A DNA stretch of 64,000 bases. It comes from Heliomicrobium sp. Its GTDB lineage: Bacteria > Acidobacteriota > Blastocatellia > RBC074. Made by a program: the position numbers and the translations under genes. Under the pieces are notes generated by a model. That model saw nothing but the letters and a program-made list of their open reading frames with translations, had not been told where the DNA came from and did no database searches. This document shows, one piece after another, positions 23,296 through 51,445 of this stretch (positions are counted from its first letter, which is position 1; each line of letters begins with the position of its first letter). Where the stretch lies: contig JAJNQA010000027.1 of the NCBI GenBank assembly GCA_021155085.1, forward strand, positions 30,058 through 94,057. The letters are read 5' to 3'.

Positions 23296-23303
23296 TGAAA
23301 GCG

Positions 23304-23351
23304 TGGGACAGATTTCAGTCTGTCCACAGTGCCGACAGGCTAAAGCCTGTC
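23304..23351. repeat. two adjacent REP-like hairpins (GTGGGACAGAT-ttcag-TCTGTCCACAG and GACAGGCT-aa-AGCCTGTCCCAC)
   Basis: same palindrome family as 34038, 40235, 41830. Confidence 0.7.
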
Positions 23352-23373
23352 CCACGATTTCCACGGAGCAATT

Positions 23374-25476: not shown

Positions 25477-25485
25477 GGTAAACGC

Positions 25486-25908
25486 ATGAAATATCAAATC
25501 TCCACGGACGACCTGGAATTTCAACGGCAGTTTGAGACGGGGAGTTTTCCACCCGCTGAATTCAGTCATCGGGAACATGTGCGGCTTGCTTATGTTTATC
25601 TTTGCGGGAATGAGCCGGAAGCGGCGCACTTCAAAATGCGCCAGGCGCTTCAACAATACCTGGCGCATCACGGCATTGATCCCGGCAAATACCACGAAAC
25701 GATGACGAAAGCCTGGGTGCTGGCGGTGCGTCACTTTATGGAACGGTCTGCGGGGGCTGCGTCGTCGGAGCAGTTCATTGAAAACTGCCCGCTGCTGCTG
25801 GAAAAGGAAATCATGCTGACGCATTACACGAAATCCGAGCTTTTTTCCGAGAAGGCGCGCAGCGGTTTTATCGAACCGGATTTGGAGCAAATTCCCAGAT
25901 ACGCGTAA
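25486..25908 (+). CDS. hypothetical protein (140 aa)
   Basis: ORF only 9 bp after peptidase stop, no known motif. Confidence 0.4.
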   Translation: MKYQISTDDLEFQRQFETGSFPPAEFSHREHVRLAYVYLCGNEPEAAHFKMRQALQQYLAHHGIDPGKYHETMTKAWVLAVRHFMERSAGAASSEQFIENCPLLLEKEIMLTHYTKSELFSEKARSGFIEPDLEQIPRYA

Positions 25909-25927
25909 CTTGCCTGACTGGTAACGC

Positions 25928-25982
25928 AGAAAGCGGCGTCTTTTGTGGATTATATTTCGATCCACGAAAGACGCCGCTTTCT
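25928..25982. terminator. bidirectional stem-loop (16-bp stem AGAAAGCGGCGTCTTT / AAAGACGCCGCTTTCT with nested hairpin) between convergent genes
   Basis: perfect 16-bp arms flanked by T/A tracts on both strands. Confidence 0.7.
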
Positions 25983-25991
25983 TGCATTCGA

Positions 25992-26001
25992 GGGGGGGGG
26001 G
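25992..26001. repeat. poly-G homopolymer (10 nt) immediately 3' of stop codon of TIG-repeat gene
   Basis: gggggggggg at 25992-26001. Confidence 0.9.
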
Positions 26002-26002
26002 A

Positions 26003-32079: not shown

Positions 32080-32634
32080 ATGTCTGAAACCCGCAACTCC
32101 GTGTCGGAGTTTAACAATCCGGAGCTTGAAGTTCTGATCCCGACCGAGAAGCTACAGGAACGAATCCGTGAACTCGGCCAGCAAATTGCCCGCGATTACG
32201 CGGGACGCCGTCCCGAACTGATCTGCGTGCTGAAAGGCGCGATGGTTTTCCTGAGCGATCTGATGCGCGCGATTGACCTCAATCTGACGATTGATTACAT
32301 CGCCGTTTCAAGTTACGGCAAAGGCGTCAAATCCTCCGGCGAAGTCAAAATCGTCAAAGACCTGGATGAGCCGCTGCAGGGCCGCGAAATCATTTTGGTT
32401 GAAGACATTCTCGACACCGGACTGACGCTCAGTTATCTGGTCAATAGTTTTCATGCGCGCGGGGCGACTTCGGTCAAGATCGCAACCTTACTCAACAAAC
32501 CGGAACGGCGCAAGGTCGAAGTCCATCCCGATTACGTCGGTTTCGATATTCCAGATAAGTTCGTTGTGGGCTATGGGCTGGATTACGCTGAGCGGTATCG
32601 CAACCTGCCTTACATCGGCGTTGTGAAAGGGTAA
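32080..32634 (+). CDS. hpt: hypoxanthine phosphoribosyltransferase
   Basis: PRTase motif ILVEDILDTGLT, full-length Hpt homology. Confidence 0.9.
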   Translation: MSETRNSVSEFNNPELEVLIPTEKLQERIRELGQQIARDYAGRRPELICVLKGAMVFLSDLMRAIDLNLTIDYIAVSSYGKGVKSSGEVKIVKDLDEPLQGREIILVEDILDTGLTLSYLVNSFHARGATSVKIATLLNKPERRKVEVHPDYVGFDIPDKFVVGYGLDYAERYRNLPYIGVVKG

Positions 32635-32747
32635 AAGGGAAGGGAAGCGGGAAACGTCATTGGCCATTGACCATTAGCAATTGGCCATTAACCGACAAAA
32701 GACAGACGCTCTTCCATCGGTTAATGGCTGAATTCCTAATTTCCGGC

Positions 32748-34019
32748 TCAGACGAAAATGTTCAAGTTGTTGAAATTTCCACCCAGCACCTGTGCCGATT
32801 CCGCCGCCGAGTTGCCGAACCAGCCTTGAATGATTGTTGCGTACACGTCGCGGAAATCAATGTTGTGTTTCAAATTGCCTTGTAACAGATCAGTCAGGTT
32901 CGGATCAGTGCCGTACATCCCGCCTTTCACTTTGCCGCCGATGCAATAAAGATTATTTGCCGTTCCGTGATCGGTGCCGTTGCTGGCGTTGTCGGCGACG
33001 CGGCGGCCAAATTCAGACCAGACCAGAATCAGCACTTTGTCGCCGATGCCGTGCGCGACCAGATCGTCATAAAACGCCTTCAACCCCTCGCTTAAGGTTT
33101 TGTGCAGATTCGGCAGATCCTTGTCCTGATTGGCGTGCGTGTCGTAGCCGCCCTGGCTGATGTAAAAGACGCGCGTGCCCAGTTTCGGGCTTGTCGAAGT
33201 CGCCATCTTGGCAATCAGCTTCAAGCCGCCGGCAAACTGATTGTTTGGATACTGCACGCTGCTCGAATAGCCGGTTGCGGCTTGTCCAACCGAATCGGAA
33301 CTGTTCAGCGCATCCAGCCAGGTGCTTTCGGCCAACTCCGCATAAGTTTTCGATGAAACCTCCGGATTGTCCCAGCGCGCGACGGCAAGCTGATTGTTGC
33401 GGTCGCCGTTGTAGCGGCCATCGGTGTTGAACGCATAACCCGACGGATTGCCTTGCGCGTCCGCGCCGATGCCGGAAATCTTCGCGCCCGGCGCATAAAG
33501 CGTTGTATTGACGCCGCCAATGCCCACCGTGTCGAGCGGATTGTTCCCGTTGCCGAACAGCAGCGAATGCCGCCCTAGCCAGCCTGATTGCGCCGTCACC
33601 GAAGGCGCGGGATCGCCGATGCGGTAAATGTTCCGCGAACCGTCGTGCGACAGATTCGGATTCGGATAATGTACGGATTGAATGACCGCCAGCTTGCCCG
33701 CGTCGGCAATCGGTTTGATTGCGCTCAAATTCGGCGACAAGCCCATCGTCGCTGAACCGTACAATGGCAAGACCTGATTTCGCGGAATCGCCAGCCGCGA
33801 ACGAAAGCTGGCGTACGTGCTGTACTGTCCGAGCGGCACAATCGTGTTGAGCGGATCATTCCCGCCGCCGAGTTCGACGACCACTAGAATTCTGTCTTCG
33901 GCGACCAATTCATGCCGCAAAGCTTCGACGACAGTCACACCGTTTGCCTGCCGGGGAAGAATCATTCCCGCGCCAATTGCGCCCGCACCAGTTTTGATGA
34001 AATCTCTTCGTGTGGTCAT
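32748..34019 (-). CDS. DUF1501 family protein (sulfatase-like, Tat signal)
   Basis: MTTRRDFIKTGAGAIGAG Tat signal; paired with DUF1800 upstream. Confidence 0.8.
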   Translation of the reverse strand: MTTRRDFIKTGAGAIGAGMILPRQANGVTVVEALRHELVAEDRILVVVELGGGNDPLNTIVPLGQYSTYASFRSRLAIPRNQVLPLYGSATMGLSPNLSAIKPIADAGKLAVIQSVHYPNPNLSHDGSRNIYRIGDPAPSVTAQSGWLGRHSLLFGNGNNPLDTVGIGGVNTTLYAPGAKISGIGADAQGNPSGYAFNTDGRYNGDRNNQLAVARWDNPEVSSKTYAELAESTWLDALNSSDSVGQAATGYSSSVQYPNNQFAGGLKLIAKMATSTSPKLGTRVFYISQGGYDTHANQDKDLPNLHKTLSEGLKAFYDDLVAHGIGDKVLILVWSEFGRRVADNASNGTDHGTANNLYCIGGKVKGGMYGTDPNLTDLLQGNLKHNIDFRDVYATIIQGWFGNSAAESAQVLGGNFNNLNIFV

Positions 34020-34037
34020 AAACTCCCCTTCGCAAAT

Positions 34038-34063
34038 GTGGGACAGGCTAAAGCCTGTCCCAC
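34038..34063. repeat. REP-like perfect palindrome GTGGGACAGGC-taaa-GCCTGTCCCAC
   Basis: 11-bp perfect stem, intergenic between DUF1800 and DUF1501. Confidence 0.85.
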
Positions 34064-34078
34064 GTTCAGAAATATTTC

Positions 34079-35611
34079 CTAAAAATTCTGCGCCTCCGGA
34101 CGCGACAGCAGCAGGTGAATCAGCCCCCGCACTTTCTTGTCTTTCGTTGTTGCGTCAAGCGTGAACGTGCCAATCGTACCGTTATCGTTTTTCTTCAGAT
34201 AATCAATCAGCAGTTGGCGAAGCTGCGCGTGAATCGGCCCCTGCACCAGCAGCTTGACGAAATAATCCACCACCTGTTCCGCCGTCGAATTCGCGTTCAA
34301 ACCCGCCGTCGCCAGCACGGTGTCTATTGGAATGCCTGGCGGGGCGGGCGCATTCCCGCGCGCTGTCGTCAGATTGTTGGCGAAGTTGGCGCGCGCGAAC
34401 AGTTGCGAAGTCGTGATCCAGTTCTCCTTGCCGGGCCAGCCGAAAACATCCGGCGGATTCAGCAAGACCATTCCCATCGAGGCAATGCTGGAAGGCGCCG
34501 GAATGTTGAATCCGCCGAAACCGCCGCCGTACAACTGGCGCAAATCCATTGTCGCCTGCGTCAATCGCACGGCGTTGACAGCGTAATACACAGGCCATTT
34601 GACCAGCGCGCGCATCGCCCGGTCAGAGTAAAATTCCTTGGTGTTCAGGAACAGATCGCGCAGGATCAACTTGATGTCGAAATCCGTCCGCAAGGCAACG
34701 GCAGCCAGATGTTCGATGACATGCGGTTCCGGATCGTCGTAGGCGAAATACTCAAACAGCTTCTTGCAAATCATCCGCGCGGCAAAGCTGCGCTGCGGTT
34801 CCCGGTCGAAAATCAAATCCACGATGTCGTCGCCATTGAAATTGCCTACCTGGCCGAAGACCGTCTTGTCGGTGTAATCGTGCCGCTGCGCCGCGCGCGA
34901 AGCATCCGGCGTGGCGGGCGGAACTTCGATGACTGCTGCCGGATCGGTGATGGGACCGTTCTGTTCGTTCATCAATTCCTTGTCGAACTGGCAGAACATC
35001 AAATTGTCGCCGCACTTCAAGCCCCAGCCGGTGAACGCCCGCGCCGCCTGCTGCACATCCGGTTCGGTGTATCCGCCCGCGAAAAAAGCGTCCAACCCGA
35101 GCGTGAAAATCTCAAACAGTTCGCGCGCATAGTTTTCATTCGGCGAGCCTTTGACGTTCAGATAATTGTCCAGCCACCACAGCATCGCCGGATCGCGGTT
35201 GATGGCTTTGACCAGCGCGCGGAAATTGCCGGTGGCGTGCTGGCGAAAGGTCAGGTTTTGCCAGTACAGATATTTGTAGCCGTTCGGCGCGCCAACTTTG
35301 CTGACTGCGGTTGCAAAATGATCGTGCCAGAAAATGACCATCCGCTCCTGCAATGGGCGGCGCGTTTTGACCATTCGTTCCAGCCACCACGAAGCCGTGT
35401 CTTCAATCGTCAGCAAGCGGATATTGAACGTTCCGTCGCGCGTCGTCGGCGTAGCGGGAATCGCGGGGTTTTCTACGACGGTTTCGTAGTTGATCAGTTG
35501 CTCCACCGTCGCCGCGAATCCTAGCTTCAAATAGTTTTCGATCTCATCCGGCCTTGCGCCAAACCCGGCGCGGCGCAGCAGATGCGCCATTCTGTCATAT
35601 TGAGTGGGCAT
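34079..35611 (-). CDS. DUF1800 family protein
   Basis: N-term MPTQYDRMAHLLRRAGFGARPDE signature; GGAG SD. Confidence 0.8.
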   Translation of the reverse strand: MPTQYDRMAHLLRRAGFGARPDEIENYLKLGFAATVEQLINYETVVENPAIPATPTTRDGTFNIRLLTIEDTASWWLERMVKTRRPLQERMVIFWHDHFATAVSKVGAPNGYKYLYWQNLTFRQHATGNFRALVKAINRDPAMLWWLDNYLNVKGSPNENYARELFEIFTLGLDAFFAGGYTEPDVQQAARAFTGWGLKCGDNLMFCQFDKELMNEQNGPITDPAAVIEVPPATPDASRAAQRHDYTDKTVFGQVGNFNGDDIVDLIFDREPQRSFAARMICKKLFEYFAYDDPEPHVIEHLAAVALRTDFDIKLILRDLFLNTKEFYSDRAMRALVKWPVYYAVNAVRLTQATMDLRQLYGGGFGGFNIPAPSSIASMGMVLLNPPDVFGWPGKENWITTSQLFARANFANNLTTARGNAPAPPGIPIDTVLATAGLNANSTAEQVVDYFVKLLVQGPIHAQLRQLLIDYLKKNDNGTIGTFTLDATTKDKKVRGLIHLLLSRPEAQNF

Positions 35612-35857
35612 AAAATTTCTCCGAAATCGGCCATCAATTGTTCAGTTGATCCGCTGAAACAACGTCACAAACCGTGCATTTCGGTCAGGAAAGGAAGGCT
35701 TCCGATAGTTTTATTCCGTTTCCAGCATTGACCGGAGATGTGGTACAAAGCGCTGGCGGTTGACGCTTTCAGACAGTGAGTCTTGAACGATGTCATCTCG
35801 CTGCCACTCACCAACTCCATTCGATAACTTTGTTCAGTCAATCCAGGAGGTGTTTCG

Positions 35858-36403
35858 ATGGTTAGAACTGCTCAGCTACTTAAGCAAACTTTCGCCGCGA
35901 TCTTGGCAACTTTATGCCTGTTTTCACTGACGACCGGAACTCAGGTTATTCAGGCGGCTCAGCAGGAGCGAACTTGTAAGGTCTATGAGCAAAGTATACC
36001 CAAAGGTGTGCTTGAGATCACGAAGATCAATAATCTTCAGTCGCCTTCGTTTCCCCAGGATTTTGAAGTTGAGGTGAAGAACATCTCAAACAAGCCGATT
36101 TATTACATCAACATAAACGCCACTCTTCCAGAAGCCTCGCCATACGGATTTATCCTGAAGTATGGCAGACGAGAGATCGCTGGTTTTGAACTTGCGGAAG
36201 AAAAAGATGTCCCCCTCCTTCCTGGTAAATCTGTAATTCTGGGGACCGACACGCCGCTGCGACAGAATAGAATGCCGAGGTTTAAAGACAATGATGCCGA
36301 ATGGGCCAGAGCAATGAGCCGAGTCAATGTGTCTTTTCAGTATCTACACTTCGGGGATGGAACTGGGTACATGATGAGCAAGCCTTATCCGCGCAAAAAT
36401 TAA
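35858..36403 (+). CDS. hypothetical secreted protein (181 aa) in AT-rich islet
   Basis: signal peptide; lower GC than surroundings. Confidence 0.5.
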   Translation: MVRTAQLLKQTFAAILATLCLFSLTTGTQVIQAAQQERTCKVYEQSIPKGVLEITKINNLQSPSFPQDFEVEVKNISNKPIYYININATLPEASPYGFILKYGRREIAGFELAEEKDVPLLPGKSVILGTDTPLRQNRMPRFKDNDAEWARAMSRVNVSFQYLHFGDGTGYMMSKPYPRKN

Positions 36404-36420
36404 GTCTTCACTTCTTGGAC

Positions 36421-36468
36421 AAAAGAAATGGGCGGCAATTGACTGTTGCTGCCCATTTCTTTTGCTTT
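36421..36468 (+). terminator. rho-independent terminator (18-bp stem AAAAGAAATGGGCGGCAA/TTGCTGCCCATTTCTTTT + T-tract)
   Basis: near-perfect 18-bp stem followed by TTTTGCTTTGC. Confidence 0.75.
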
Positions 36469-36578
36469 GCTGGCGGAATGGGTTGATCGCAATGATGACG
36501 CGAGTTTGCATTGTTTTGTCTGATTGGGGACGTGCTATGCTTCCGCCACAATGTTGACTGAGAAAATTGGAGGCTACG

Positions 36579-36806
36579 ATGATTCGGACGATTGAAGCTC
36601 CGCAAATTCAGGTGGAATGGCTAAAGCTGCTCGAAGCTGCAAGTCGAGGCGAGGAGATCATAATCACGCGCGATACCCAACCCGTCGCCAAGCTTGCGCC
36701 AGTAAGCCATGGTGATGGTGATTTACGCTACGGCAGCGCCAAAGGCCTGGTCACAATTCATCCGGATTTTGATGCGCCGATTGAAGGATTTGAGGAGTAT
36801 CAGTAA
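36579..36806 (+). CDS. type II antitoxin, Phd/YefM-VapB-like
   Basis: GGAGG SD; MIRTIEAPQIQVEWLKLLEAASRGEEIIITRDTQPVAKLAPV; stop overlaps toxin start. Confidence 0.7.
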   Translation: MIRTIEAPQIQVEWLKLLEAASRGEEIIITRDTQPVAKLAPVSHGDGDLRYGSAKGLVTIHPDFDAPIEGFEEYQ

Positions 36807-37192
36807 TGCGGTTGCTCTTGGACACGCACGCGCTGCTGTGGTTCGTCAGCGCGGATCCCAAACTCAGCCTGCCTGCGCAACAAGCCATTGCGGATCCCCG
36901 AAATCAGAAATTCGTCAGCATCGTCAGCCTTTGGGAAATTGCAATCAAACACAGTTTGGGCAGGTTGGATTTGCAAATGCCGCTTGCTGATTTCATTAAC
37001 CAGCATCTGACGCCAGGGAAGATCACGCTTTTGTCCATGAGCATTCCTCATCTGCTGAAAGTTGATTTGCTCCCGCACCTTCACCGCGACCCATTTGATC
37101 GCTTGTTGATCGCTCAAGCTTTGACCGAAAACTTATTGCTGGTGAGCGCTGACGCCGCATTTGATCAATATGGTGTGCCACTGATTTGGTGA
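36806..37192 (+). CDS. vapC: type II toxin VapC (PIN domain RNase)
   Basis: MRLLLDTHALLWF...PIN acidic residues D6, E, D. Confidence 0.8.
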   Translation: MRLLLDTHALLWFVSADPKLSLPAQQAIADPRNQKFVSIVSLWEIAIKHSLGRLDLQMPLADFINQHLTPGKITLLSMSIPHLLKVDLLPHLHRDPFDRLLIAQALTENLLLVSADAAFDQYGVPLIW

Positions 37193-37269
37193 TTGTAAAC
37201 GGGCAGCGAGAATCAGTCTCTGCCCGTCAAATTTGCTGCTCCGGCAAAGTAGTTTGAAAGAAGACCAAT

Positions 37270-38823
37270 TCAGAAGGAATTTTTGATATTAAACGAATCA
37301 GGCTCGTCGGCCATCGAGTTGATGACGTTTAACTGCCCGCCCGTGAATTCAAACACCTTCCACAACGTCCCGCCGCCGGTTGGAGCCGTGAATACCCGCA
37401 CTTGGCTGTTTCCGCTGTACACCCGAACTACCACGCCGGATTGCGCGATGCCGGTGCTGCCATTCGTGTCACGGTTGGTGTAGTTGTGAATCGAGAAGCG
37501 ATAGGTGCTGGTTGCGTTTGGAGTAAAAGTCACGGTTTCTGGGCCGGGGCTGCTGCCGTCAATGTCCAGCATCGTGGTCATGGGGGTGAGCAAATCCGTC
37601 GGTTCCAGCCACCAGACGTGGAAGCGGGAATTGCCGGAAGCCGGGCCGGTCATATGCGCGTCGAGGTCAATCGCGCTTTGCCAGGTGACGATGACTCTGT
37701 ATTGCCCGGCGGCGAGCGGGGCTGTCAGCGCAAAGTTGGCGGTGCCTGTCTGGCCTCCGGTGACCATCGCCGATTGCGAGGCGGTAATGAAGCCATTGGC
37801 GGCGGCGGACAAATTGTAGCTGCCCGGATTGATGACGTAGAGATTGAATTTGCCCAGTACGTCGGTCGTGGCTGTGCGCGTGGTGCCGTTGCCAGTGGGT
37901 TGCAGGCTGACGCTTGCGCCCGCGAGCGGCGCGCCGCTGACCGCATTGAGCACGGTGCCGCCAACGGTGCCGAATTCATTGCGGTTCACGATGGCCAGCG
38001 TGGTTGAAAGGCTCTGTTTGCCTTTCAACGAGACAGTAAAAGGCGTTTTCAGATTGGTCGGCAGGCTGGCCGGAATCACCGCGTTGATCTGCCACAGGCC
38101 GACGAAGCCGGGCGCGAGTCCGCTGAATTGGACTTCGGCGGCGATGCCGCCAATTGAAACAGAGGTTGTGCCAGTGGCCACAGCTAGCGGATCGCCGGGA
38201 GCCGCGACGCCGTCCGCGACCAGCGGATTGGTGTTGCCGATGCCGGTGGCGTAAATCACCACGACGTTGCCGGAAGCTTCAGGGCGCGCGCCTGGAGATT
38301 TATCGAAATCGGAGTTGGGCGAAAGATCGGAATTCAGCGCAATGGCCTGGTTCTTGCCAGAAAGATCTGTTGTCAAAATTCCGGGCGCGGCTTCGGCGAC
38401 GTTGGCTGTGCCGGTTCCGACTGCGGCGGCAATGCCGTTGTTGAAGACCTGAATGCTGGAGGTCCCGACCGTTGCGCCGCTGGGCACTTGCAGGTTGATC
38501 TGGTTCGGCGAAACGAAAAAGAGCGGCGCGTCAATGCCGTTGATTTTGACCGTCACGCCGCCCAGCGTTTTCGGCAGCGGCACGGTCGACGCGATGACGG
38601 TTTGCGTCGCCATCCCCGCGCCGAACAACGCGCCGATGGAGCCGGGCGCGACCGCCACATCGTAGCTTGCCGCATTGACCAGCGTAACCGTGCCGGCTTG
38701 GGCGGCTTTGGCTGCCGGCGCGAAGTGAGTGGTTGCGGCGGCGGCATAAACAAACAGCGCCAGAACCAGCACTCGCCGCGACCAAGAACAAGCGGATGAA
38801 TTGAAGATTGCTTTAAGCTTCAT
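37270..38823 (-). CDS. secreted protein: N-terminal Solibacter-type domain (SAASY...QINLQVP) + carboxypeptidase-regulatory-like domain
   Basis: signal peptide; VNAASYDVAVAPGSIGALFG...VSPNQINLQVP; GTVLNAVSGAPLAGASVSL... CarbopepD_reg-like. Confidence 0.6.
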   Translation of the reverse strand: MKLKAIFNSSACSWSRRVLVLALFVYAAAATTHFAPAAKAAQAGTVTLVNAASYDVAVAPGSIGALFGAGMATQTVIASTVPLPKTLGGVTVKINGIDAPLFFVSPNQINLQVPSGATVGTSSIQVFNNGIAAAVGTGTANVAEAAPGILTTDLSGKNQAIALNSDLSPNSDFDKSPGARPEASGNVVVIYATGIGNTNPLVADGVAAPGDPLAVATGTTSVSIGGIAAEVQFSGLAPGFVGLWQINAVIPASLPTNLKTPFTVSLKGKQSLSTTLAIVNRNEFGTVGGTVLNAVSGAPLAGASVSLQPTGNGTTRTATTDVLGKFNLYVINPGSYNLSAAANGFITASQSAMVTGGQTGTANFALTAPLAAGQYRVIVTWQSAIDLDAHMTGPASGNSRFHVWWLEPTDLLTPMTTMLDIDGSSPGPETVTFTPNATSTYRFSIHNYTNRDTNGSTGIAQSGVVVRVYSGNSQVRVFTAPTGGGTLWKVFEFTGGQLNVINSMADEPDSFNIKNSF

Positions 38824-38917
38824 CGCAAAACTCCTGTAAAACGTTTATGGCTCGGTCTTCAGGCGGAAGAGTTGCATTGAAAACCGCTTCCGCCTGAAGG
38901 CGGAACTACAAACCTCA

Positions 38918-40216
38918 TCACATCAAAAAGCCCAGATTCGTGAATTGACCGTTGAGCACTTGTTGAGCCTCGGCAGCGGTGTTGCCGAACCAGCTTTGAA
39001 TGATCGTCGAATAGGCATCGCGGAAATCCAGATTGTTTTTCAGGTTTCCGTTTTGCAGATCGTTCAGTTTGGGGTCCGCGCCGTAGGTGCCGCCTTTGAC
39101 ACGGTCGCCGATGCAATAAATATTGTTGGCCTGGCCGTGATCGGTGCCGTCGCTGGCGTTGTCGGCGACACGGCGGCCAAATTCGGACCAGATCATAATC
39201 AGCGTTTTGTCAGCCAGATTATGCGCCACCAGGTCGTCGTAAAACGCTTTCACGGCTTCGGCCAACGCTCTATGCAACGTTGGCTGATCGTTGATTTGGT
39301 CAGCATGCGTGTCATAACCGCCCTGAGTGGCGTAAAAAACGCGCGAACCCAGTTGCGGATTGGTCGAGGTGGCCAGTTTGGCGATCAGTTTCAAGCCGGC
39401 GGCAAGGTTGTTGCCGGTTGGATACGTGATGGTGCTTTGGTAGGTTGCGGCAGCTTGCGCGACCAGGTCGGCGCTGTTCAGCGCATCAAGCTGGGTTGAC
39501 TCAGACAGATCAATGTAAGGTTTGTTGGATTGCGCGTTGTCAACGGTTCTGGCCACGGCGAGTTGATTGTTGCGGTCGCCCGTGTAGCGGTCATCCGTGC
39601 GGAAAAGATAACCGGAGGGATTGCCTTGCGCGTCATTGTTAATTCCAGAGATTTTCGCGCCCGGCGCATACAGCGTTGAATTGACGCCGCCGATGCCGAC
39701 CGTGTCCAGCGAATTCGTCCTGCTGCCGAACAGCGCCGAATGGCGGCCAATCCAGCCCGTGCCGCCCGCCGCCACGCTGCCGGAAGCATTGCCTTGCCGG
39801 TAGATCGAACGCGAGCCGTCGTGCGACAGGTTCGGATTCGGGTAATGGCACATTTGAATGACAGCCAGTTTGCCCGCGTCCGCAATGGGTTTGATCGCGC
39901 TGAGGTTCGGCGACAAGCCCATCGTCGTTGAACCGTACAGCGGCAGCACCTGTTCTTTCGGAATGGCGATGCGCGAACGGAAGCTGGCGTAGGTGTTGTA
40001 CTGTTGCAGCGGCACGATGGTGTTGAGCGGATCGTTGCCGCCGGCCAGTTCGATGATGACCAGGATTTTGTTGTCCGCCTGCAATTCGTCCCGCAGCATT
40101 TGCACCATTGCCTCGCCCCTGGCGTCGGGGTTGAAGACCGGCAGCAGCATTCCTGCACTGAGGCCTGCGCCAACTGCGGCCGTGCCTGTTTTGATGAAAT
40201 CTCTTCGCGTGGTCAT
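38918..40216 (-). CDS. DUF1501 family protein (paralog 2)
   Basis: MTTRRDFIKTGTAAVGAGLSAGMLLP Tat signal; about 60% identical to 32748-34019 product. Confidence 0.8.
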   Translation of the reverse strand: MTTRRDFIKTGTAAVGAGLSAGMLLPVFNPDARGEAMVQMLRDELQADNKILVIIELAGGNDPLNTIVPLQQYNTYASFRSRIAIPKEQVLPLYGSTTMGLSPNLSAIKPIADAGKLAVIQMCHYPNPNLSHDGSRSIYRQGNASGSVAAGGTGWIGRHSALFGSRTNSLDTVGIGGVNSTLYAPGAKISGINNDAQGNPSGYLFRTDDRYTGDRNNQLAVARTVDNAQSNKPYIDLSESTQLDALNSADLVAQAAATYQSTITYPTGNNLAAGLKLIAKLATSTNPQLGSRVFYATQGGYDTHADQINDQPTLHRALAEAVKAFYDDLVAHNLADKTLIMIWSEFGRRVADNASDGTDHGQANNIYCIGDRVKGGTYGADPKLNDLQNGNLKNNLDFRDAYSTIIQSWFGNTAAEAQQVLNGQFTNLGFLM

Positions 40217-40234
40217 AAAATCTCCTTCGCAATT

Positions 40235-40287
40235 GTGGGACAGGCTTCAGCCTGTCGTCAGTGCGGACAGGCTGAAGCCTGTCCCAC
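40235..40287. repeat. two head-to-head REP-like hairpins forming a 53-bp near-perfect super-palindrome
   Basis: GTGGGACAGGC-ttca-GCCTGTCgtcagtgcGGACAGGC-tgaa-GCCTGTCCCAC. Confidence 0.85.
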
Positions 40288-40302
40288 GTTCAGGAATGAC
40301 TT

Positions 40303-41808
40303 CTAAAAATTCTGGCATTCGGGCCGCGACAGCAGCAGATGAATCAAGCCGCGCACCTTTTTGTCTTTCGTCGTCGCATCCAGCGTGAACGTGCCGATGG
40401 ATCCGTTGTCGGTCTTTTTCAGATAATCCACCAGCGCCTGGCGGACGTTTGCCGCCAGCGGACGCTGGATCAGCAGGCTGATGAAGTAATCGGTGACTTG
40501 TTCGGCGGTGGCGTTGGCGCCAAGTCCGCCTGCGGCCAGTACCGTATCAATTGGAATGCCGGTGTTGCCCTGCGTGGTGCTGCGGTTGGTGGCCAGTGCA
40601 TTGGCGAAATTGTCCCGCGCCAGCAGTTGCGCGGTCGTAATCCATTCCTCCTTGCCGGGCCAGCCGAAAACATCCGGTGGATTCAGCAGCGCCATGCCCA
40701 TGGCGTCGAGCGTCGTCTGCTGTTGCTGGACACGCCCGCCGCCGTTCAAACCGCGCGTGATGATCGAAGCTTGAAGTTGCCGCACGGCGTTGACGACGTA
40801 ATACACAGGCCATTTGACCAGCGAATGAATGGCGCGTTCGGAATAGAACTCCTTGGTGTTGAGGAACAGATCGCGCAGGACGAGTTTGATGTTGAAGTTG
40901 TGGCGCAGGGTGACGGCGGCCATGTGCTCGACGACTGCTTCTTCGGGGTTTTCGTAGGCGAAATGTTCGAAGAGCTTTTTGCCGATCATCTTCGCGGCGA
41001 AGGTGCGCTGCGGTTCGTGGTCGAGAATCAAATCCACGATGTCGTCGCCGTTGAAATTGCGCACCACGCCGAAGACTGTCTTGTCGCCGTAATCGTGATT
41101 TCGCGTGGCCGGCGAGTTGTCGTTCGCATTCGGAGGAATGATGACGGCTTGTGCCGGATCAGTCAGCGGGCCGTTCGGATTGTTGTTGACCGGAACATCC
41201 GCGCCGCGCCGGATCGTCCAGCCGGTGAAAGCGCGCGCGGCTTGTTGCACGTCCGGCTCTGTGTAACCCCCCGCGAAGAAGGATTCCAGTCCGAGCATGA
41301 AAATCTCCAACTGCTCGCGGGCATAGTTTTCATTCGGGCTGCCTTTGATGTTCAGGTAGTTGTCCAGCCACCACAGCATTGCCGGGTCGCGGTTGATGGC
41401 TTTGCACATCGCGCGAAAGTCCCCGGTGGCGTATTGCCTGAAAAGCTGGTTTTGCCAGTACAGGTATTTGAGGCCGTTCGGCACGTTGACCTTGCTGGCC
41501 GCCGTTGCGAAATGATCATGCCAGAAAATGGTCATCCGCTCCTGCAGCGGGCGTTTGGTGAAGATCATCCGCGTCAGCCACCAGGAAGTGGTGTTATCCA
41601 GGTCGAGAATTTGAACGTCCAACCCGCCTCCGGTGGTGGTGGGTTGGGCCGGGACATTGGGCGATTCGGCGACGTTTTCGTAATTGATCAGTTGATCCAC
41701 CGTCGTCTCGAAGCCTTGTTTGAGGTAGTTGTTGATTTCGTCGGGACGCGCACCGAACGCGGCTCGACGCCACAGATGCGCCATTCTGTCATAGGCTGAT
41801 ACCGCCAT
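40303..41808 (-). CDS. DUF1800 family protein (paralog 2)
   Basis: MAVSAYDRMAHLWRRAAFGARPDE; AAGGAGGA SD. Confidence 0.8.
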   Translation of the reverse strand: MAVSAYDRMAHLWRRAAFGARPDEINNYLKQGFETTVDQLINYENVAESPNVPAQPTTTGGGLDVQILDLDNTTSWWLTRMIFTKRPLQERMTIFWHDHFATAASKVNVPNGLKYLYWQNQLFRQYATGDFRAMCKAINRDPAMLWWLDNYLNIKGSPNENYAREQLEIFMLGLESFFAGGYTEPDVQQAARAFTGWTIRRGADVPVNNNPNGPLTDPAQAVIIPPNANDNSPATRNHDYGDKTVFGVVRNFNGDDIVDLILDHEPQRTFAAKMIGKKLFEHFAYENPEEAVVEHMAAVTLRHNFNIKLVLRDLFLNTKEFYSERAIHSLVKWPVYYVVNAVRQLQASIITRGLNGGGRVQQQQTTLDAMGMALLNPPDVFGWPGKEEWITTAQLLARDNFANALATNRSTTQGNTGIPIDTVLAAGGLGANATAEQVTDYFISLLIQRPLAANVRQALVDYLKKTDNGSIGTFTLDATTKDKKVRGLIHLLLSRPECQNF

Positions 41809-41829
41809 AACGCTTCCTCCTTGAAAAAC

Positions 41830-41880
41830 GTGGGAGAGGCTTTCGCCAGTCCCACCGTGGACAGACCGAAGCCTGCCCCT
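41830..41880. repeat. degenerate copies of GTGGGA..GGC/GCC..TCCCAC hairpin family
   Basis: GTGGGAGAGGCtttcGCCAGTCCCAC and GGACAGACcgaaGCCTGCCC. Confidence 0.5.
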
Positions 41881-42066
41881 CGCTGTGTTGAGGGCTGCTG
41901 ATGAAATCTGTTTTGTAGAGCTTGCAGCTTGAGAACGATCTGCGCCGCAGTGAACTTTTCCGCGCTTGTCTTGTCGCGCGTCAGATTCACTTCCGCAAGT
42001 CAGCGTTGTTTGGGAGGAGGTCTTTACAAAAAAAGTCTTAAATATTTTTGCGCCGGCTCAATTTAT

Positions 42067-42855
42067 TCAATCTGTTTTCGGCGCGCCGCCAATCAAGGCC
42101 AGCAATCCGCCATCCACGTCAATCGCAGTTCCAGTGACGAAGGATGCTGCATCCGTCAGCAGGAAGGCGATGACTTCGGCGACCTCCATCGGCTGGGCCA
42201 TTCGACCCATCGGGTGCATGCTCGCGCAGGCTTTGATGACGGAATCCGGATTGGCGTCAAGTGACGCAGACCAGCGAAACATCGGCGTGTCCACGGTTCC
42301 GGGGCAGACGCAGTTGACGCGGATGTGTTCCGCTGCGTAATCCACCGCCATTGCTCTGGTCAGCCCGAGCATCGCGTGCTTGCTGGTGACATACGCAACC
42401 GCGCCACGTTGCGACGCGTGCGATTGCACGGAGCCGACATTGACGATGGCGCCGCCACCGCTCTGCCGTAAATGCGGGATGGCCGCGCGAGAAACCAGAA
42501 ATGCGGCAGTCAGATTTACATCCATCACTTCGCGCCACAATTCCAGCGAAGTTTGTTCCGCATTGCCGTAGCGCTGAATGCCAGCGCTGTTGACGACGGC
42601 GTCGAGGCTTCCGAACGCCTGGACAGTTTGGGCGACAGCGCGCTCGGCGTCTTCCGGCTGAGCCAGATTGGCTTCAATGAAAATGGCGCGTTGATCCTGG
42701 TCATTGAGAGCGGTCAACGCTTCCGCACCTTTGCCGGCCTGCACATCAACAATGGCCACGCGCGCGCCGCGCTGATGAAGCAATTGCGCGGTGGCCAGAC
42801 CGATGCCGCTCGCGCCGCCGGTGACAAGCGCTGACAGTTTGCTGGAGTTGGTCAT
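42067..42855 (-). CDS. SDR-family NAD(P)-dependent oxidoreductase
   Basis: LVTGGASGIGLATA Rossmann, catalytic YxxxK (YVTSKHAM); start at MTNSS avoids overlap with kinase. Confidence 0.8.
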   Translation of the reverse strand: MTNSSKLSALVTGGASGIGLATAQLLHQRGARVAIVDVQAGKGAEALTALNDQDQRAIFIEANLAQPEDAERAVAQTVQAFGSLDAVVNSAGIQRYGNAEQTSLELWREVMDVNLTAAFLVSRAAIPHLRQSGGGAIVNVGSVQSHASQRGAVAYVTSKHAMLGLTRAMAVDYAAEHIRVNCVCPGTVDTPMFRWSASLDANPDSVIKACASMHPMGRMAQPMEVAEVIAFLLTDAASFVTGTAIDVDGGLLALIGGAPKTD

Positions 42856-50176: not shown

Positions 50177-50262
50177 GCCGGAGAAGCCCGATGGACGGGC
50201 GGCGGACTGTAAACCCGTTGTGGACGTGTGTCTGCAAGCAGGTTCGATTCCTGCCTCCGGCA
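50177..50262 (+). tRNA. tRNA-Tyr(GTA), type II (19-nt variable arm); non-canonical A8-A9
   Basis: acceptor GCCGGAG/CTCCGGC, loop CTGTAAA, T-arm GCAGG-TTCGATT-CCTGC, disc A; A31-C39 mismatch. Confidence 0.55.
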
Positions 50263-50267
50263 TTTCG

Positions 50268-50339
50268 GGGAGTATGTGGTAACTGGCAACCGGTCGGTCT
50301 CCAAAACCGATATTCCAGGTTCAAATCCTGGTACTCCTG
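50268..50339 (+). tRNA. tRNA-Trp(CCA)
   Basis: anticodon arm TCGGT-CTCCAAA-ACCGA, T-arm CCAGG-TTCAAAT-CCTGG, G1-U72; irregular D-arm. Confidence 0.6.
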
Positions 50340-50358
50340 TCAACGTTTGTAGCTATTT

Positions 50359-50446
50359 AGAGGCGTGGCGGAATTGGCAATCGCACTGGTCCGCTAAACC
50401 AGGGAGCTACTACAGTCTCGTGTGGGTTCGAGTCCCACCGCCTCTG
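50359..50446 (+). tRNA. tRNA-Ser(GCT), type II; C33 in anticodon loop
   Basis: acceptor AGAGGCG/CGCCTCT, CTGGT-CCGCTAA-ACCAG, long variable arm, T-arm GTGGG-TTCGAGT-CCCAC. Confidence 0.6.
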
Positions 50447-50465
50447 TCGAGTTATTTTTAGTTAC

Positions 50466-50550
50466 GGAGGGTTAGCCTAATTGGTAAGGCAGCAGTTTCG
50501 AAAACTGCCGTAGGATTGTACCTTTGAGGGTTCGAGTCCCTCACCCTCCT
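50466..50550 (+). tRNA. tRNA-Ser(CGA), type II; CCA encoded (50551-50553)
   Basis: acceptor GGAGGGT/ACCCTCC, GCAGT-TTCGAAA-ACTGC, T-arm GAGGG-TTCGAGT-CCCTC. Confidence 0.7.
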
Positions 50551-50600
50551 CCATTAAGTTCGGAGGTAATCAGCAACGCAATTAAGTTACAAATAGTTAT

Positions 50601-50684
50601 GGAGGGATGGCCGAATTGGCAAGGCAGTAGTTTTGAAAACTACCGGAGGTAACACTCTTCGGGGTTCGAGTCCCCGTCCCTTCG
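50601..50684 (+). tRNA. tRNA-Ser(TGA), type II
   Basis: acceptor GGAGGGA/TCCCTTC, GTAGT-TTTGAAA-ACTAC, T-arm CGGGG-TTCGAGT-CCCCG. Confidence 0.7.
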
Positions 50685-50715
50685 TCAGGTAGTAGTGTGT
50701 CTTGCAGGTACTTTG

Positions 50716-50791
50716 GCACTGGTAGCTCAGTTGGAATCAGAGCGCGGGCCTCCGAAGCCTGAGGTCGCGAGTTCGAGTCTCGCCCGGTGCA
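50716..50791 (+). tRNA. tRNA-Arg(CCG)
   Basis: acceptor GCACTGG/CCGGTGC, CGGGC-CTCCGAA-GCCTG, T-arm GCGAG-TTCGAGT-CTCGC. Confidence 0.7.
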
Positions 50792-50846
50792 TTTGACGTA
50801 AGTCGAACGTTATTTGAAAAGCCGGAAGTTATATTCAAATTACTTT

Positions 50847-50921
50847 GCGGGTGTGGCGCAAGCTGGTAGACGCGCAGCGCTAAGAACGCTGTTATTGGAG
50901 GTTCAAGTCCTCTCACCCGCA
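50847..50921 (+). tRNA. compact (type I, 75 nt) Leu-like tRNA with anticodon AAG
   Basis: acceptor GCGGGTG/CACCCGC, Leu-type D-arm GCG-CAAGCTGGTAGA-CGC, CAGCG-CTAAGAA-CGCTG, 5-nt variable loop, T-arm GGAGG-TTCAAGT-CCTCT, disc A. Confidence 0.5.
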
Positions 50922-50931
50922 TTTGGCGTTT

Positions 50932-51006
50932 GCAGGCATGGCGCAAATTGGCAGACGCGGCAGTCTCAAAAACTGCATTGTGAAGGTTCGAGTCCTTCTG
51001 CCTGCA
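50932..51006 (+). tRNA. compact (type I, 75 nt) Leu-like tRNA, anticodon CAA
   Basis: acceptor GCAGGCA/TGCCTGC, D-arm GCG-CAAATTGGCAGA-CGC, GCAGT-CTCAAAA-ACTGC, variable ATTGT, T-arm GAAGG-TTCGAGT-CCTTC, disc A. Confidence 0.55.
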
Positions 51007-51022
51007 TTATTGAAAGTTTTTT

Positions 51023-51098
51023 GTGGGTGTGGCGCAATTCAGGTAGACGCACCGGTCTCAGAAGCCGGTTGTTGGAGGTTCAAGTCCTCTCACCCACA
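51023..51098 (+). tRNA. compact (type I, 76 nt) Leu-like tRNA, anticodon CAG
   Basis: acceptor GTGGGTG/CACCCAC, D-arm GCG-CAATTCAGGTAGA-CGC, CCGGT-CTCAGAA-GCCGG, variable TTGTT, disc A. Confidence 0.55.
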
Positions 51099-51108
51099 TC
51101 AGATTTTC

Positions 51109-51181: not shown

Positions 51182-51193
51182 CCATATTCTTTT

Positions 51194-51267: not shown

Positions 51268-51278
51268 TCATTTGATCT

Positions 51279-51354: not shown

Positions 51355-51365
51355 TTGTCAGTTTT

Positions 51366-51435: not shown

Positions 51436-51445
51436 TCAAAGTATG

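What the first reader, a model, noticed from the sequence alone, without database searches (positions are those of the whole stretch)
32748..41808. Two paralogous DUF1800-DUF1501 operons bracketing an AT-rich islet, each decorated with the same palindromic hairpin family
The DUF1800(-)/DUF1501(-) pairs at 34079-35611/32748-34019 and 40303-41808/38918-40216 are ~55-60% identical paralogs. Both have Tat-signal DUF1501 proteins. Both carry GTGGGACAGGC-nnnn-GCCTGTCCCAC hairpins in the DUF1800-DUF1501 spacer and upstream. The function of this widespread pair is unknown. The tandem paralogy with a toxin-antitoxin-bearing islet between them suggests recent duplication or recombination.
Basis: partly seen in the sequence, partly recalled or inferred. 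Interest (0 to 1): 0.5.

Follow-up and report, generated by a model that had tools for sequence, protein, structure and literature searches.

The report
Old duplicated gene pair with mobile hairpins
Two neighbouring copies of a widespread gene pair of unknown function are real, but the duplication is ancient and conserved in this group of soil bacteria, and the shared hairpins are ordinary mobile palindromic repeats (REP/REPIN type) that come and go between strains rather than signals specific to these genes.

Summary
The four ORFs sit exactly where stated and are DUF1800/DUF1501 pairs. They are 68-69% identical, not 55-60%. Both DUF1501 proteins carry Tat signals.

The duplication is not recent. 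NJ trees place the two pairs in separate sister clades, each with orthologues in other Blastocatellia. The cluster DUF1800-DUF1501-CarboxypepD_reg-DUF1800-DUF1501 is contiguous in another MAG (L016). The low-GC VapBC islet is a strain-lineage insertion at a junction that holds a different 9.5-kb insert in a third genome (L018).

The hairpins are real (7 arm matches against 0.79 expected), but they behave as GTGG-headed REP/REPIN elements:
- One precedes an unrelated S9 peptidase gene.
- None lies upstream of operon 1.
- Both spacer hairpins are missing from a 96.5%-identical strain.
- None of 135 other hairpin loci encodes DUF1800 or DUF1501.
- The same core flanks RAYT transposase genes in other soil contigs.

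The two spacers resemble each other within a genome (76-78%) but not between strains (37-46%), which suggests gene conversion between the paralogues.

DUF1501 models as an alkaline-phosphatase-superfamily enzyme nearest NPP/PafA, with no sulfatase CxPxR motif. DUF1800 is signal-less, all-alpha, and has no solved structural relative. I infer that it is exported with DUF1501 through Tat as a complex.

Verdict: ordinary, low novelty.

The parts
40303..41808 (-). DUF1800, 'upstream pair' copy (501 aa), no signal peptide
   Evidence: ORF. Pfam PF08811, E 2e-100. Falls in the clade with P0027, L016_up and L141_up. No hydrophobic N-terminus.
38918..40216 (-). DUF1501, 'upstream pair' copy (432 aa), Tat signal
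   Evidence: Pfam PF07394. TIGR01409 scores 20.0 bits against a cut-off of 16.7. Clusters with L019_up and L016_up.
37270..38823 (-). Secreted 517-aa protein with Soli_cterm and CarboxypepD_reg domains; a conserved third member of the cluster
   Evidence: Pfam and NCBIfam hits. N-terminal signal-like sequence. A homologous gene lies next to the pairs in L016, L018, L019 and L141.
35612..37269 (.). Low-GC inserted islet between the CarboxypepD_reg gene and DUF1800 copy 1
   Evidence: GC 46-51%. The same junction is 110 bp in L016 and holds a different 9.5-kb insert in L018. No flanking repeats that would define a mobile element.
35858..36403 (+). 181-aa predicted secreted protein with no family match (islet cargo)
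   Evidence: No Pfam or NCBIfam hit. The translation shows a hydrophobic N-terminus.
36567..36806 (+). VapB/Phd-like antitoxin (79 aa)
   Evidence: NCBIfam TA_VapB E 5e-8 (below the curated cut-off) and phd_fam E 1e-3. The gene ends where the PIN gene starts.
36806..37192 (+). PIN-domain VapC-type toxin (128 aa)
   Evidence: Pfam PIN, E 3.7e-12.
34079..35611 (-). DUF1800, 'downstream pair' copy (510 aa), no signal peptide
32748..34019 (-). DUF1501, 'downstream pair' copy (423 aa), Tat signal, alkaline-phosphatase-superfamily fold
34038..34063 (.). REP singlet GTGGGACAGGC-TAAA-GCCTGTCCCAC in the DUF1800-1/DUF1501-1 spacer. It lies 15 nt after the stop codon and 18 nt before the ATG.
   Evidence: The hairpin dominates an RNA fold of -28 kcal/mol, z -4.3. 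Absent from the orthologous spacer in L019 and L140.
40235..40287 (.). REPIN-like doublet in the DUF1800-2/DUF1501-2 spacer. Two inverted REP copies flank a 9-nt centre and fold as a 22-bp hairpin.
   Evidence: Fold of -53 kcal/mol, z -8.4. Absent from the L019 spacer. Present in L146.
41830..41879 (.). Degenerate REPIN-like doublet 21 nt upstream of the DUF1800-2 start codon
   Evidence: Conserved in L019. Weaker fold, z -2.3.
23303..23355 (.). REPIN-like doublet of the same family outside the cluster. It lies between a PQQ-propeller gene and an S9 peptidase gene.
   Evidence: Neighbouring genes. Fold of -36.9 kcal/mol, z -5.1.
38857..38899 (.). Unrelated 13-bp-arm palindrome (CTTCAGGCGGAAG...CTTCCGCCTGAAG) between DUF1501-2 and the CarboxypepD_reg gene

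Best explanation
The region is a conserved Blastocatellia (Acidobacteriota) gene cluster produced by an ancient tandem duplication. Its order is [DUF1800-DUF1501] - secreted CarboxypepD_reg/Soli_cterm protein - [DUF1800-DUF1501].

In this species a 1.66-kb low-GC insert sits at a junction that is variable between genomes. The insert carries a 181-aa secreted protein plus a VapBC toxin-antitoxin pair.

Each pair most likely encodes a two-subunit exported enzyme:
- DUF1501 is a Tat-signal-bearing metallo-hydrolase or transferase of the alkaline-phosphatase superfamily, closest in fold to NPP/PafA phosphodiesterases and phosphatases. The candidate nucleophile is invariant Ser124, placed at a helix N-terminus. 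Candidate metal ligands are E49/D55, D293-x-H295 and D350-H351.
- DUF1800 is a signal-less all-alpha protein with no solved structural relative. I infer that it binds DUF1501 in the cytoplasm and is carried across the membrane with it by 'hitchhiking'.

The hairpins are not operon signals. They are GTGG-headed repetitive extragenic palindromes, present as singlets and as inverted doublets (REPIN-like). They belong to a family whose core flanks RAYT transposase genes in other soil bacteria.

The hairpin-bearing spacer allele is strain-specific. It occupies both operons because the intercistronic spacer was copied between the paralogues by gene conversion. The nearly identical coding ends (...GLIHLLLSRPE / M..TRRDFIKTG) served as homology arms.

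Any effect of the hairpins is secondary and dispensable. Possible effects are mRNA 3'-end protection of DUF1800 or processing between the cistrons.

Shown: gene identities, age of the duplication, conserved synteny, the insert, hairpin polymorphism, the RAYT link in other taxa, the protein folds, and Tat signal versus no signal. Inferred: complex formation and co-export, catalytic residues, substrate class, the gene-conversion mechanism, and any RNA-level effect.
For: Genes and signals.

Taxon: homologues are named Blastocatellia, Blastocatellales or Acidobacteriota.

Ancient duplication:
- NJ trees of both proteins split into an 'upstream pair' clade and a 'downstream pair' clade, each containing orthologues from L016, L018, L019 and L141.
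- L016 has all five genes contiguous.
- L141 has 1800-1501-1800-1501-CarboxypepD_reg.

Insert: the L016 junction is 110 bp, and L018 has TIR-NACHT-FGE-sulfatase x2 plus bAvd at the same place. GC profile.

Hairpins as REP/REPIN:
- Enrichment above chance and strong folds.
- A copy at an unrelated gene.
- Loss from both spacers in the 96.5%-identical L019 and from spacer 1, the only one on the contig, in L140.
- A doublet of this family sits before the phosphoribosyltransferase gene in L019/L140, where the window has other sequence.
- No DUF1800/DUF1501 gene in 135 other hairpin loci.
- A Y1_Tnp gene is flanked by inverted copies of GGGACAGGCT(TC/GA)AGCCTGTCCC in L088 and in L142. A variant hairpin flanks the gene in L143.
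- Homologues of that gene are named RayT by JGI.
- The GTAG head of REPs is reported to degenerate to GTRG or GTGG (PMC3733652).
- Other Blastocatellia loci carry their own REPIN-like families, including in the same DUF1800-DUF1501 spacer.

Gene conversion: spacer identity is 78% for win1/win2 and 76% for L019_1/L019_2. Orthologous spacers are only 37% and 46% identical. Coding bodies are 95-99% identical between orthologues and 71-73% between paralogues.

Proteins:
- DUF1501 fold, with invariant residues and no CxPxR motif.
- 81 of 85 DUF1800 homologues have <=20 residues before the invariant RR, and none of the window copies has a hydrophobic N-terminus.
Against: - No RAYT gene was found in the window or in any Blastocatellia locus held. 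The REP-RAYT link for this lineage rests on sequence identity of the core with RAYT-flanking REPs in unrelated high-GC contigs.
- Genome-wide copy number in the source genome is unknown. Only 4 loci in 64 kb were seen.
- In classical REPs the GTAG head lies outside the stem. Here GTGG pairs with CCAC.
- Three of the four window loci lie in this cluster (Fisher p 0.005, or 0.04 if the two homologous spacers count once). A local functional role is therefore not excluded.
- Gene conversion is inferred from identity patterns only. Two independent acquisitions of a similar cassette, or import of both tracts from an unsampled donor, would give a similar picture.
- Complex formation and co-export of DUF1800 were not tested. 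DUF1800 could simply be cytoplasmic.
- The catalytic residues come from conservation and predicted secondary structure, not from a residue-level superposition.
- The trees are distance-based NJ without bootstrap support.
Confidence: 0.75

Rival explanations
1. A recent tandem duplication or recombination created two operons, and a dedicated hairpin family marks and regulates them.
For: - Same orientation, gene order and hairpin position in both spacers.
- Three of four hairpin loci in the window lie in this cluster.
Against: - The paralogues are 68-69% identical, while orthologues in other genomes reach 82-93%.
- The trees separate the copies into old clades.
- The cluster is conserved in distant relatives.
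- The spacer hairpins are absent in a conspecific strain.
- A hairpin lies at an unrelated gene.
- No DUF1800/DUF1501 gene lies near 135 other hairpin copies.
Confidence: 0.04
2. The palindrome is a DNA operator or RNA regulatory element of a small regulon. The regulon would comprise both DUF1501 genes, DUF1800-2 and the S9 peptidase. A dimeric regulator would bind the element, and its resemblance to REPs would be incidental.
For: - The palindrome is a perfect 11-4-11.
- In the window and in several related loci the 3' end lies 17-22 nt before a start codon, just 5' of the Shine-Dalgarno sequence.
- Local enrichment in the cluster.
Against: - Both spacer copies are dispensable in a 96.5%-identical strain.
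- The inverted doublets with a variable centre are typical of REPINs.
- The same core flanks RAYT genes.
- Other genomes place unrelated palindromes in the same spacer.
- In longer intergenic regions such palindromes sit next to the upstream stop codon, not the start.
- No positional peak appears in 147 copies compared with shifted controls.
- No Rfam family matches.
Confidence: 0.08
3. The hairpins are intrinsic terminators or attenuators that uncouple DUF1800 transcription from DUF1501 transcription.
For: - Very stable GC-rich stems between the cistrons.
- Some unrelated genomes use the same stem with A- and T-runs as bidirectional terminators (L005, L007, L013).
Against: - No T-run follows the stem on the coding strand.
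- The terminator scan did not call any of the hairpins.
- A terminator between the subunit genes of an obligate pair would be counter-productive.
- One copy lies in a 5' leader (41830-41879).
Confidence: 0.05
4. The two spacer hairpins result from two independent REP insertions, reflecting a target preference for this spacer, rather than from gene conversion between the paralogues.
For: - REP/REPIN elements are mobile.
- L141 and L018 carry their own families in the same spacer, which suggests the site is permissive or preferred.
Against: - The similarity between the two window spacers extends beyond the hairpin. It covers both non-REP flanks, the stop codon (TAG in both, against TAA and TGA in L019) and the first codons (ATGACCAC).
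- L019's two hairpin-less spacers are likewise alike (76%).
Confidence: 0.15

Closest known systems
REP/REPIN elements mobilised by RAYT (TnpA_REP) tyrosine transposases
   Same: - Short GC-rich extragenic palindromes with a GT[AG]G-type head (here GTGG).
- They occur as singlets and as inverted doublets that form a long hairpin.
- They show presence/absence polymorphism between close strains.
- The same core flanks Y1_Tnp/RayT genes in inverted orientation in L088 and L142 (PMC3733652, PMC3116915, PMC3337134).
   Different: - The GTGG head is part of the stem, because the singlet is a perfect palindrome.
- The RAYT of this lineage was not found.
- Acidobacteria were not among the phyla listed for GTAG repeats in the 2013 survey.
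- Genome-wide copy number is unknown.
DUF1800 (PF08811) - DUF1501 (PF07394) gene pairs of unknown function, for example those linked to bacterial chitin-synthase genes, and the two tandem pairs in Agrobacterium vitis (PMC5122149)
   Same: - Same two families and the same gene order.
- A Tat motif on DUF1501.
- Tandem doubling of the pair has been described before.
   Different: - There is no chitin synthase or sugar epimerase nearby.
- Here the conserved third partner is a secreted CarboxypepD_reg/Soli_cterm protein.
Nucleotide pyrophosphatase/phosphodiesterases (NPP) and PafA-type alkaline phosphatases (alkaline-phosphatase superfamily)
   Same: - A conserved D-H-G motif and a D-x-H motif are present.
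- A hydroxyl residue sits at a helix N-terminus, where the superfamily nucleophile is found.
   Different: - Sequence identity is only about 11%, and there is no sequence-level match to any PDB entry.
- Substrate and metal content are unknown.
- DUF1501 has an obligatory DUF1800 neighbour, which NPP and PafA lack.
Type I (formylglycine) sulfatases
   Different: The C/S-x-P/A-x-R formylglycine motif is absent from both DUF1501 copies. Sulfatases also rank below NPP and PafA in the fold search.
Tat 'hitchhiker' complexes such as hydrogenase HybO-HybC and DmsA-DmsB (own knowledge)
   Same: One subunit has a twin-arginine signal and the adjacent, co-transcribed partner has none.
   Different: No cofactor-insertion logic is evident. 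Complex formation was not tested here.
Intercistronic REP in the E. coli malE-malF operon (own knowledge)
   Same: A stable REP hairpin lies between two cistrons shortly after the upstream stop codon. It could protect the upstream mRNA segment from 3' exonucleases.
   Different: There are no expression data. The element is absent in a sister strain, so any effect is not required.

Membership tests
REP/REPIN | Short (20-40 nt) imperfect or perfect palindrome able to form a stem-loop | tested here: met
   26-nt 11-4-11 unit. Folds are strongly below shuffled controls.
REP/REPIN | Extragenic location | tested here: met
   All four window loci lie between ORFs.
REP/REPIN | Conserved GTAG / GT[AG]G tetranucleotide at one end | tested here: met
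   The units begin with GTGG. GTGG variants are documented in PMC3733652. Caveat: here the head is base-paired.
REP/REPIN | Inverted doublets (REPINs) separated by a short spacer | tested here: met
   40235-40287, 23303-23355 and 41830-41879, plus the L019/L140 doublet.
REP/REPIN | High copy number dispersed over the genome | tested here: inconclusive
   Four loci (7 units) in 64 kb, and one further locus in L019. The whole genome is not available. The motif is 9-fold or more above shuffles.
REP/REPIN | Cognate RAYT gene flanked by the REPs | tested here: inconclusive
   Met for the same core in L088 and L142, and for a variant in L143. These are high-GC contigs from other taxa. No RAYT was found in the window or in the Blastocatellia loci held.
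DUF1800 (PF08811) | Full-length match to the family HMM above the gathering score | tested here: met
   346 and 337 bits against a cut-off of 26.1, covering profile positions 1-418 of 419.
DUF1501 (PF07394) | Match to the family HMM above the gathering score | tested here: met
   101 and 94.5 bits against a cut-off of 27.
Alkaline-phosphatase superfamily | Core alpha/beta fold | tested here: met
   [not shown]
Alkaline-phosphatase superfamily | Metal-binding Asp/His residues and a nucleophile at a helix N-terminus | tested here: inconclusive
   E49, S124, H125, D293, H295, D350 and H351 are invariant in 77 sequences. They are placed after beta-strands in the model. No residue-level superposition or experiment was done.
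Type I sulfatase | C/S-x-P/A-x-R formylglycine motif | tested here: not met
   The regular expression finds no match in either DUF1501 copy.
Tat substrate | Twin-arginine signal (S/T-R-R-x-F-L-K followed by a hydrophobic region) | tested here: met
   TIGR01409 is above its cut-off for both DUF1501 copies. The family profile's only PDB match is the NapA signal peptide. Sequence: MTTRRDFIKTGAGAIGAG...
Tat hitchhiker pair | Partner lacks any signal peptide | tested here: met
   The DUF1800 N-termini are hydrophilic and are part of a confidently folded helix.
Tat hitchhiker pair | Partner forms a complex with the signal-bearing subunit before export | not testable with these tools
   No multimer prediction or experiment is available. 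The one apparent fusion protein (P0086) looks like a deletion or assembly chimera.
VapBC type II toxin-antitoxin | PIN-domain toxin preceded by a small overlapping antitoxin gene | tested here: met
   PIN at E 3.7e-12. The VapB/Phd hits are below the curated cut-off but significant. The two genes abut at 36806.

The most novel reading that the evidence does not exclude
DUF1800-DUF1501 is an obligate two-subunit periplasmic phosphodiesterase- or phosphatase-like enzyme. In this reading a catalytic alkaline-phosphatase-superfamily subunit carries a novel-fold, signal-less all-alpha subunit through the Tat pathway. In addition, the REP family in its spacers belongs to a REP-RAYT system whose identical core is shared across distant soil phyla, which would imply horizontal spread of a REP-RAYT pair.
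Probability: 0.25. Interest if true: 0.55.

Novelty: new member of a known kind. Interest (0 to 1): 0.27.

Why it matters
It removes a false lead. Neither the hairpins nor the islet says anything specific about the DUF1800/DUF1501 system, and the duplication is old.

The modest points of value are these:
- A widespread and uncharacterised gene pair now has a concrete, testable model. That model is Tat co-export of a novel-fold partner with an NPP/PafA-like enzyme, with Ser124 as candidate nucleophile.
- There is evidence for GTGG-headed REP/REPIN elements in Blastocatellia. This phylum was not covered by earlier REP surveys.
- It is a clear small example of concerted evolution of intercistronic spacers between ancient paralogues.

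Tried and rejected
1. Hairpin always about 18 nt upstream of a start codon, as an RBS-linked element. This looked striking in 6-7 loci. It failed in two tests:
   - 147 copies showed no positional peak against shifted controls.
   - A survey of intergenic palindromes in Blastocatellia loci showed they sit next to the upstream stop codon when the spacer is long.

2. Hairpins as markers of DUF1800/DUF1501. tblastn of the window proteins against 135 hairpin loci found nothing.

3. Rfam. No family matches the hairpins or anything else in 32500-42300. The gathering-threshold scan of the whole window found only tRNAs.

4. Sequence search of both proteins and of the DUF1501 profile against the PDB gave no homologue. 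The only hit was the NapA Tat signal peptide.

6. P0086 as a Rosetta-stone fusion of DUF1800 and DUF1501. It is 542 aa, with a DUF1800 N-terminal part joined to the last ~110 residues of DUF1501. It is probably a deletion or chimera, so I did not use it.

7. Mobile-element boundaries of the islet. No convincing flanking direct or inverted repeats were found.

8. Search for a Blastocatellia RAYT. Of the four RAYT homologues on long contigs that were fetched with DNA, two (L142, L143) carried GGGACAG-type REPs but are high-GC, and two (L144, L145) carried none. None is Blastocatellia. A fifth look-up (P0244) returned no DNA.

9. Viral contigs hold no exact copy of the hairpin.

10. Literature. 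No paper in the library assigns a function to either DUF.

Full report
**Observation**

- 34079-35611(-) and 40303-41808(-) are full-length DUF1800 proteins.
- 32748-34019(-) and 38918-40216(-) are DUF1501 proteins.
- Both DUF1501 copies have a twin-arginine signal above the TIGR01409 cut-off.

The palindrome GTGGGACAGGC-N4-GCCTGTCCCAC is present in both DUF1800-DUF1501 spacers. At 34038-34063 it is a single unit. At 40235-40287 two inverted units flank a 9-nt centre. A degenerate doublet lies 21 nt upstream of DUF1800-2 at 41830-41879. Nothing of the kind lies upstream of DUF1800-1.

A fourth locus (23303-23355) lies between a PQQ-propeller gene and an S9 peptidase gene.

The motif is well above chance. 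There are 7 arm matches against 0.79 expected, and 4 core matches against 0.11 expected. The units fold strongly, at -28 to -53 kcal/mol with z from -4.3 to -8.4.

An independent Logan assembly is 100% identical over 17.3 kb including the hairpins, so they are not assembly artefacts.

GC falls to 46-51% around 35500-37250. That stretch holds an unassigned 181-aa secreted protein, a VapB-like antitoxin and a PIN toxin.

The rest of the interval between the pairs is a 62%-GC gene for a secreted Soli_cterm/CarboxypepD_reg protein.

**Origin and age of the duplication**

Named homologues are from Blastocatellia, Blastocatellales or Acidobacteriota.

DUF1800 copy 1 has homologues at 93, 85, 85, 83 and 82% identity in other assemblies. 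All are closer than its neighbour copy 2 at 68%.

NJ trees of DUF1800 and DUF1501 both resolve two sister clades:
- One contains window copy 2 together with the upstream copies of L016, L019 and L141.
- The other contains window copy 1 together with the downstream copies of L016, L018, L019 and L141.

Synteny agrees with the trees:
- L016, a Blastocatellales MAG, has DUF1800-DUF1501-CarboxypepD_reg-DUF1800-DUF1501 contiguous. Only 110 bp separate the third and fourth genes.
- L141, from a 9.5-Mb contig, has the two pairs back to back, followed by the CarboxypepD_reg gene.
- L018 has the CarboxypepD_reg gene, then 9.5 kb holding two TIR-NACHT-FGE-sulfatase genes and a bAvd gene, then the downstream pair.
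- L019, which is 96.5% identical to the window over 21.5 kb, and L146 have the same VapBC islet as the window.

So the pairs do arise from a tandem duplication, but an old one that predates the divergence of these lineages. The islet is a later insertion at a junction that accepts different cargo in different genomes. No repeat boundaries of a mobile element were found around it.

**What the hairpins are**

Each unit has a GTGG head followed by a GC-rich palindrome. Three of the four loci are inverted doublets that fold into one long hairpin. This is the anatomy of REPs and REPINs. The literature describes the REP head as GTAG, degenerating to GTRG or GTGG in some families (PMC3733652; PMC3116915 and PMC3337134, listed).

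They are polymorphic between close strains:
- L019 lacks both spacer hairpins, although its coding sequence is 95-99% identical.
- L140 also lacks the spacer-1 hairpin.
- L019 and L140 carry a doublet of the same family in front of the phosphoribosyltransferase gene, where the window has other sequence.

They are not linked to the operons elsewhere:
- L016 has no hairpin in either spacer.
- A genome scan and a metagenome scan with the hairpin returned 15 and at least 120 loci.
- None of those 135 loci (638 kb) encodes a DUF1800 or DUF1501 homologue.

Among those loci, L088 carries a Y1_Tnp gene (PF01797, 35.4 bits) flanked by GGGACAGGCTTCAGCCTGTCCC on one side and its reverse complement on the other.

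Homologues of that protein are named RayT or REP-associated tyrosine transposase by JGI. The homologue in L142 is flanked by two copies of the same hairpin upstream and two downstream, one of them degenerate. The homologue in L143 is flanked by a variant, GGGACAGTCCTAGGACTGTCCC.

Other Blastocatellia loci have their own REPIN-like families at several intergenic sites. In L141 and L018 one of those sites is the DUF1800-DUF1501 spacer itself.

Rfam has no matching family.

I therefore file the hairpins as REP/REPIN-type elements. Two defining features remain unproven for this genome: no RAYT was found in the Blastocatellia sequence held, and the genome-wide copy number is unknown.

**Why both spacers carry the element**

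The table gives nucleotide identity for the spacers and for the coding bodies.

| Comparison | Spacer identity | Coding-body identity |
|---|---|---|
| Paralogues within the window (win1/win2) | 78% | 71-73% |
| Paralogues within L019 | 76% | 71-73% |
| Orthologues, operon 1 (window/L019) | 37% | 95-99% |
| Orthologues, operon 2 (window/L019) | 46% | 95-99% |

The within-genome similarity extends beyond the hairpin. It covers both flanks, the stop codon (TAG in both window copies, TAA and TGA in L019) and the first codons.

Around each spacer, window-to-L019 identity drops to 66-85% for a few hundred bases.

This pattern fits replacement of the spacer region by recombination in one lineage, followed by homogenisation between the two paralogous spacers. 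The near-identical coding ends (GLIHLLLSRPE... and ...TRRDFIKTG) would supply the homology. This is an inference from identity patterns. Two independent insertions are the main alternative.

It also explains the apparent local enrichment. Three of 6 cluster intergenic regions carry the element, against 1 of 40 elsewhere (p 0.005). The value falls to 0.04 when the two homologous spacers are counted once.

**What the genes probably do**

No function is reported for either family in the library searched. One paper notes the conserved pairing, the Tat motif and two tandem pairs in Agrobacterium vitis.

DUF1501:
- The AlphaFold2 model has pLDDT 85 outside the signal peptide.
- There is no sequence-level PDB match.
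- Residues invariant in 77 homologues include E49, S124-H125, S128-R129, D293, H295, E336, D350-H351-G352.
- S124 sits at the N-terminus of helix 125-134, after strand 110-117. The nucleophile of this superfamily is found at such a position.
- The sulfatase C/S-x-P/A-x-R motif is absent.

DUF1800:
- The model is confident (pLDDT 92, pTM 0.93) and all-alpha.
- It has no hydrophobic N-terminus. In 81 of 85 homologues at most 20 residues precede the invariant RR of the first helix.

A signal-less protein always encoded next to a Tat-signal protein suggests assembly in the cytoplasm and co-export. That step is inferred, not shown.

The conserved secreted CarboxypepD_reg/Soli_cterm protein may act with the pairs outside the cytoplasm. 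I have no evidence on how.

**Effect of the hairpins on the operon**

The terminator scan did not call the hairpins, and no T-run follows them on the coding strand.

In both spacers the element starts 15 nt after the DUF1800 stop codon and ends 18 nt before the DUF1501 start codon. The Shine-Dalgarno sequence is left free.

A role as a 3'-exonuclease barrier or a processing site is plausible by analogy with intercistronic REPs in E. coli (own knowledge). The hairpin-less sister strain shows that any such role is dispensable.

**Verdict**

This is an old, conserved paralogous cluster of an uncharacterised but already recognised gene pair. It carries a strain-lineage toxin-antitoxin insertion and ordinary mobile palindromes. 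Novelty is low: a new member of known kinds. The open question worth pursuing is the biochemical function of the DUF1800/DUF1501 pair.

Noticed in passing
window 50177-54387 (+): A dense array of 33-34 tRNA genes in about 4.2 kb, covering at least 19 amino acids, with no tRNA-Met called. It includes unusual anticodons (Ile-AAT, Ile-TAT, Leu-AAG). It lies between an amino-acid permease gene and the threonyl-tRNA synthetase gene. This is unusual for a bacterial chromosome and deserves its own look.
   Followed up: partly
window 4883-5002, 6161-6418, 8525-8847, 25477-26002, 38857-38899: Other long intergenic palindromes unrelated to the GTGGGACAGGC family. One has 30-bp arms (CCTGGGTACGCATCGC...). 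An AT-rich family (TTTCCCATTTCCCATTTTTGATTTGTCATT...) occurs at two sites. One has 22-bp arms between convergent genes. The genome seems rich in several REPIN-like families.
   Followed up: partly
L018 663-9862: At the junction where the window has the VapBC islet, this Acidobacteria MAG has two TIR-NACHT-FGE-sulfatase genes and a bAvd gene. bAvd is an accessory protein of diversity-generating retroelements. This suggests a defence or DGR-type islet at a recurrent insertion site.
   Followed up: no
L141 2490-2846, 5050-5166, 11507-11608, 21048-21283: A different REPIN-like family (GTCCGACAAGCTGNCAGCTTGTCG ... inverted copy, with 24-27-bp arms) occurs four times in 21 kb of a 9.5-Mb genome. One copy is in its own DUF1800-DUF1501 spacer.
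   Followed up: partly
L020-L139 (metagenome loci), e.g. L063 3703-3928, L035 ~3300-3365, L079 ~220-285: The core GGGACAGGC-TNNA-GCCTGTCCC is common in high-GC soil contigs (mean GC 66%). The loops are almost always TTCA, TGAA or TTAA. It forms arrays of four copies spaced 54-75 nt apart, and tandem half-site repeats that end in a full palindrome. Sharing of an identical REP core across distant taxa is unexplained.
   Followed up: partly
L019 11507-11564 and 17690-17717: The hairpin-less spacer allele starts with three tandem TTGCGGA heptamers in both operons. A GCGGATTGC-armed palindrome occurs in L018 at 17517-17594, so this allele may derive from another repeat family.
   Followed up: no
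L016 6954-8270 (DUF1501, upstream copy): The Tat signal region carries an extra tandem repeat (CAACCGAACTGGCAACCAAACTGGCAACCGAACTTG) that is absent from the other copies.
   Followed up: no
L003, L006, L008, L009 (contigs of a MAG labelled Heliomicrobium, binchicken_co200_54): Four contigs with 55-62% GC carry the exact 26-nt Blastocatellia-type hairpin with TNNA loops. The bin may contain acidobacterial contigs, or the label may be wrong.
   Followed up: no
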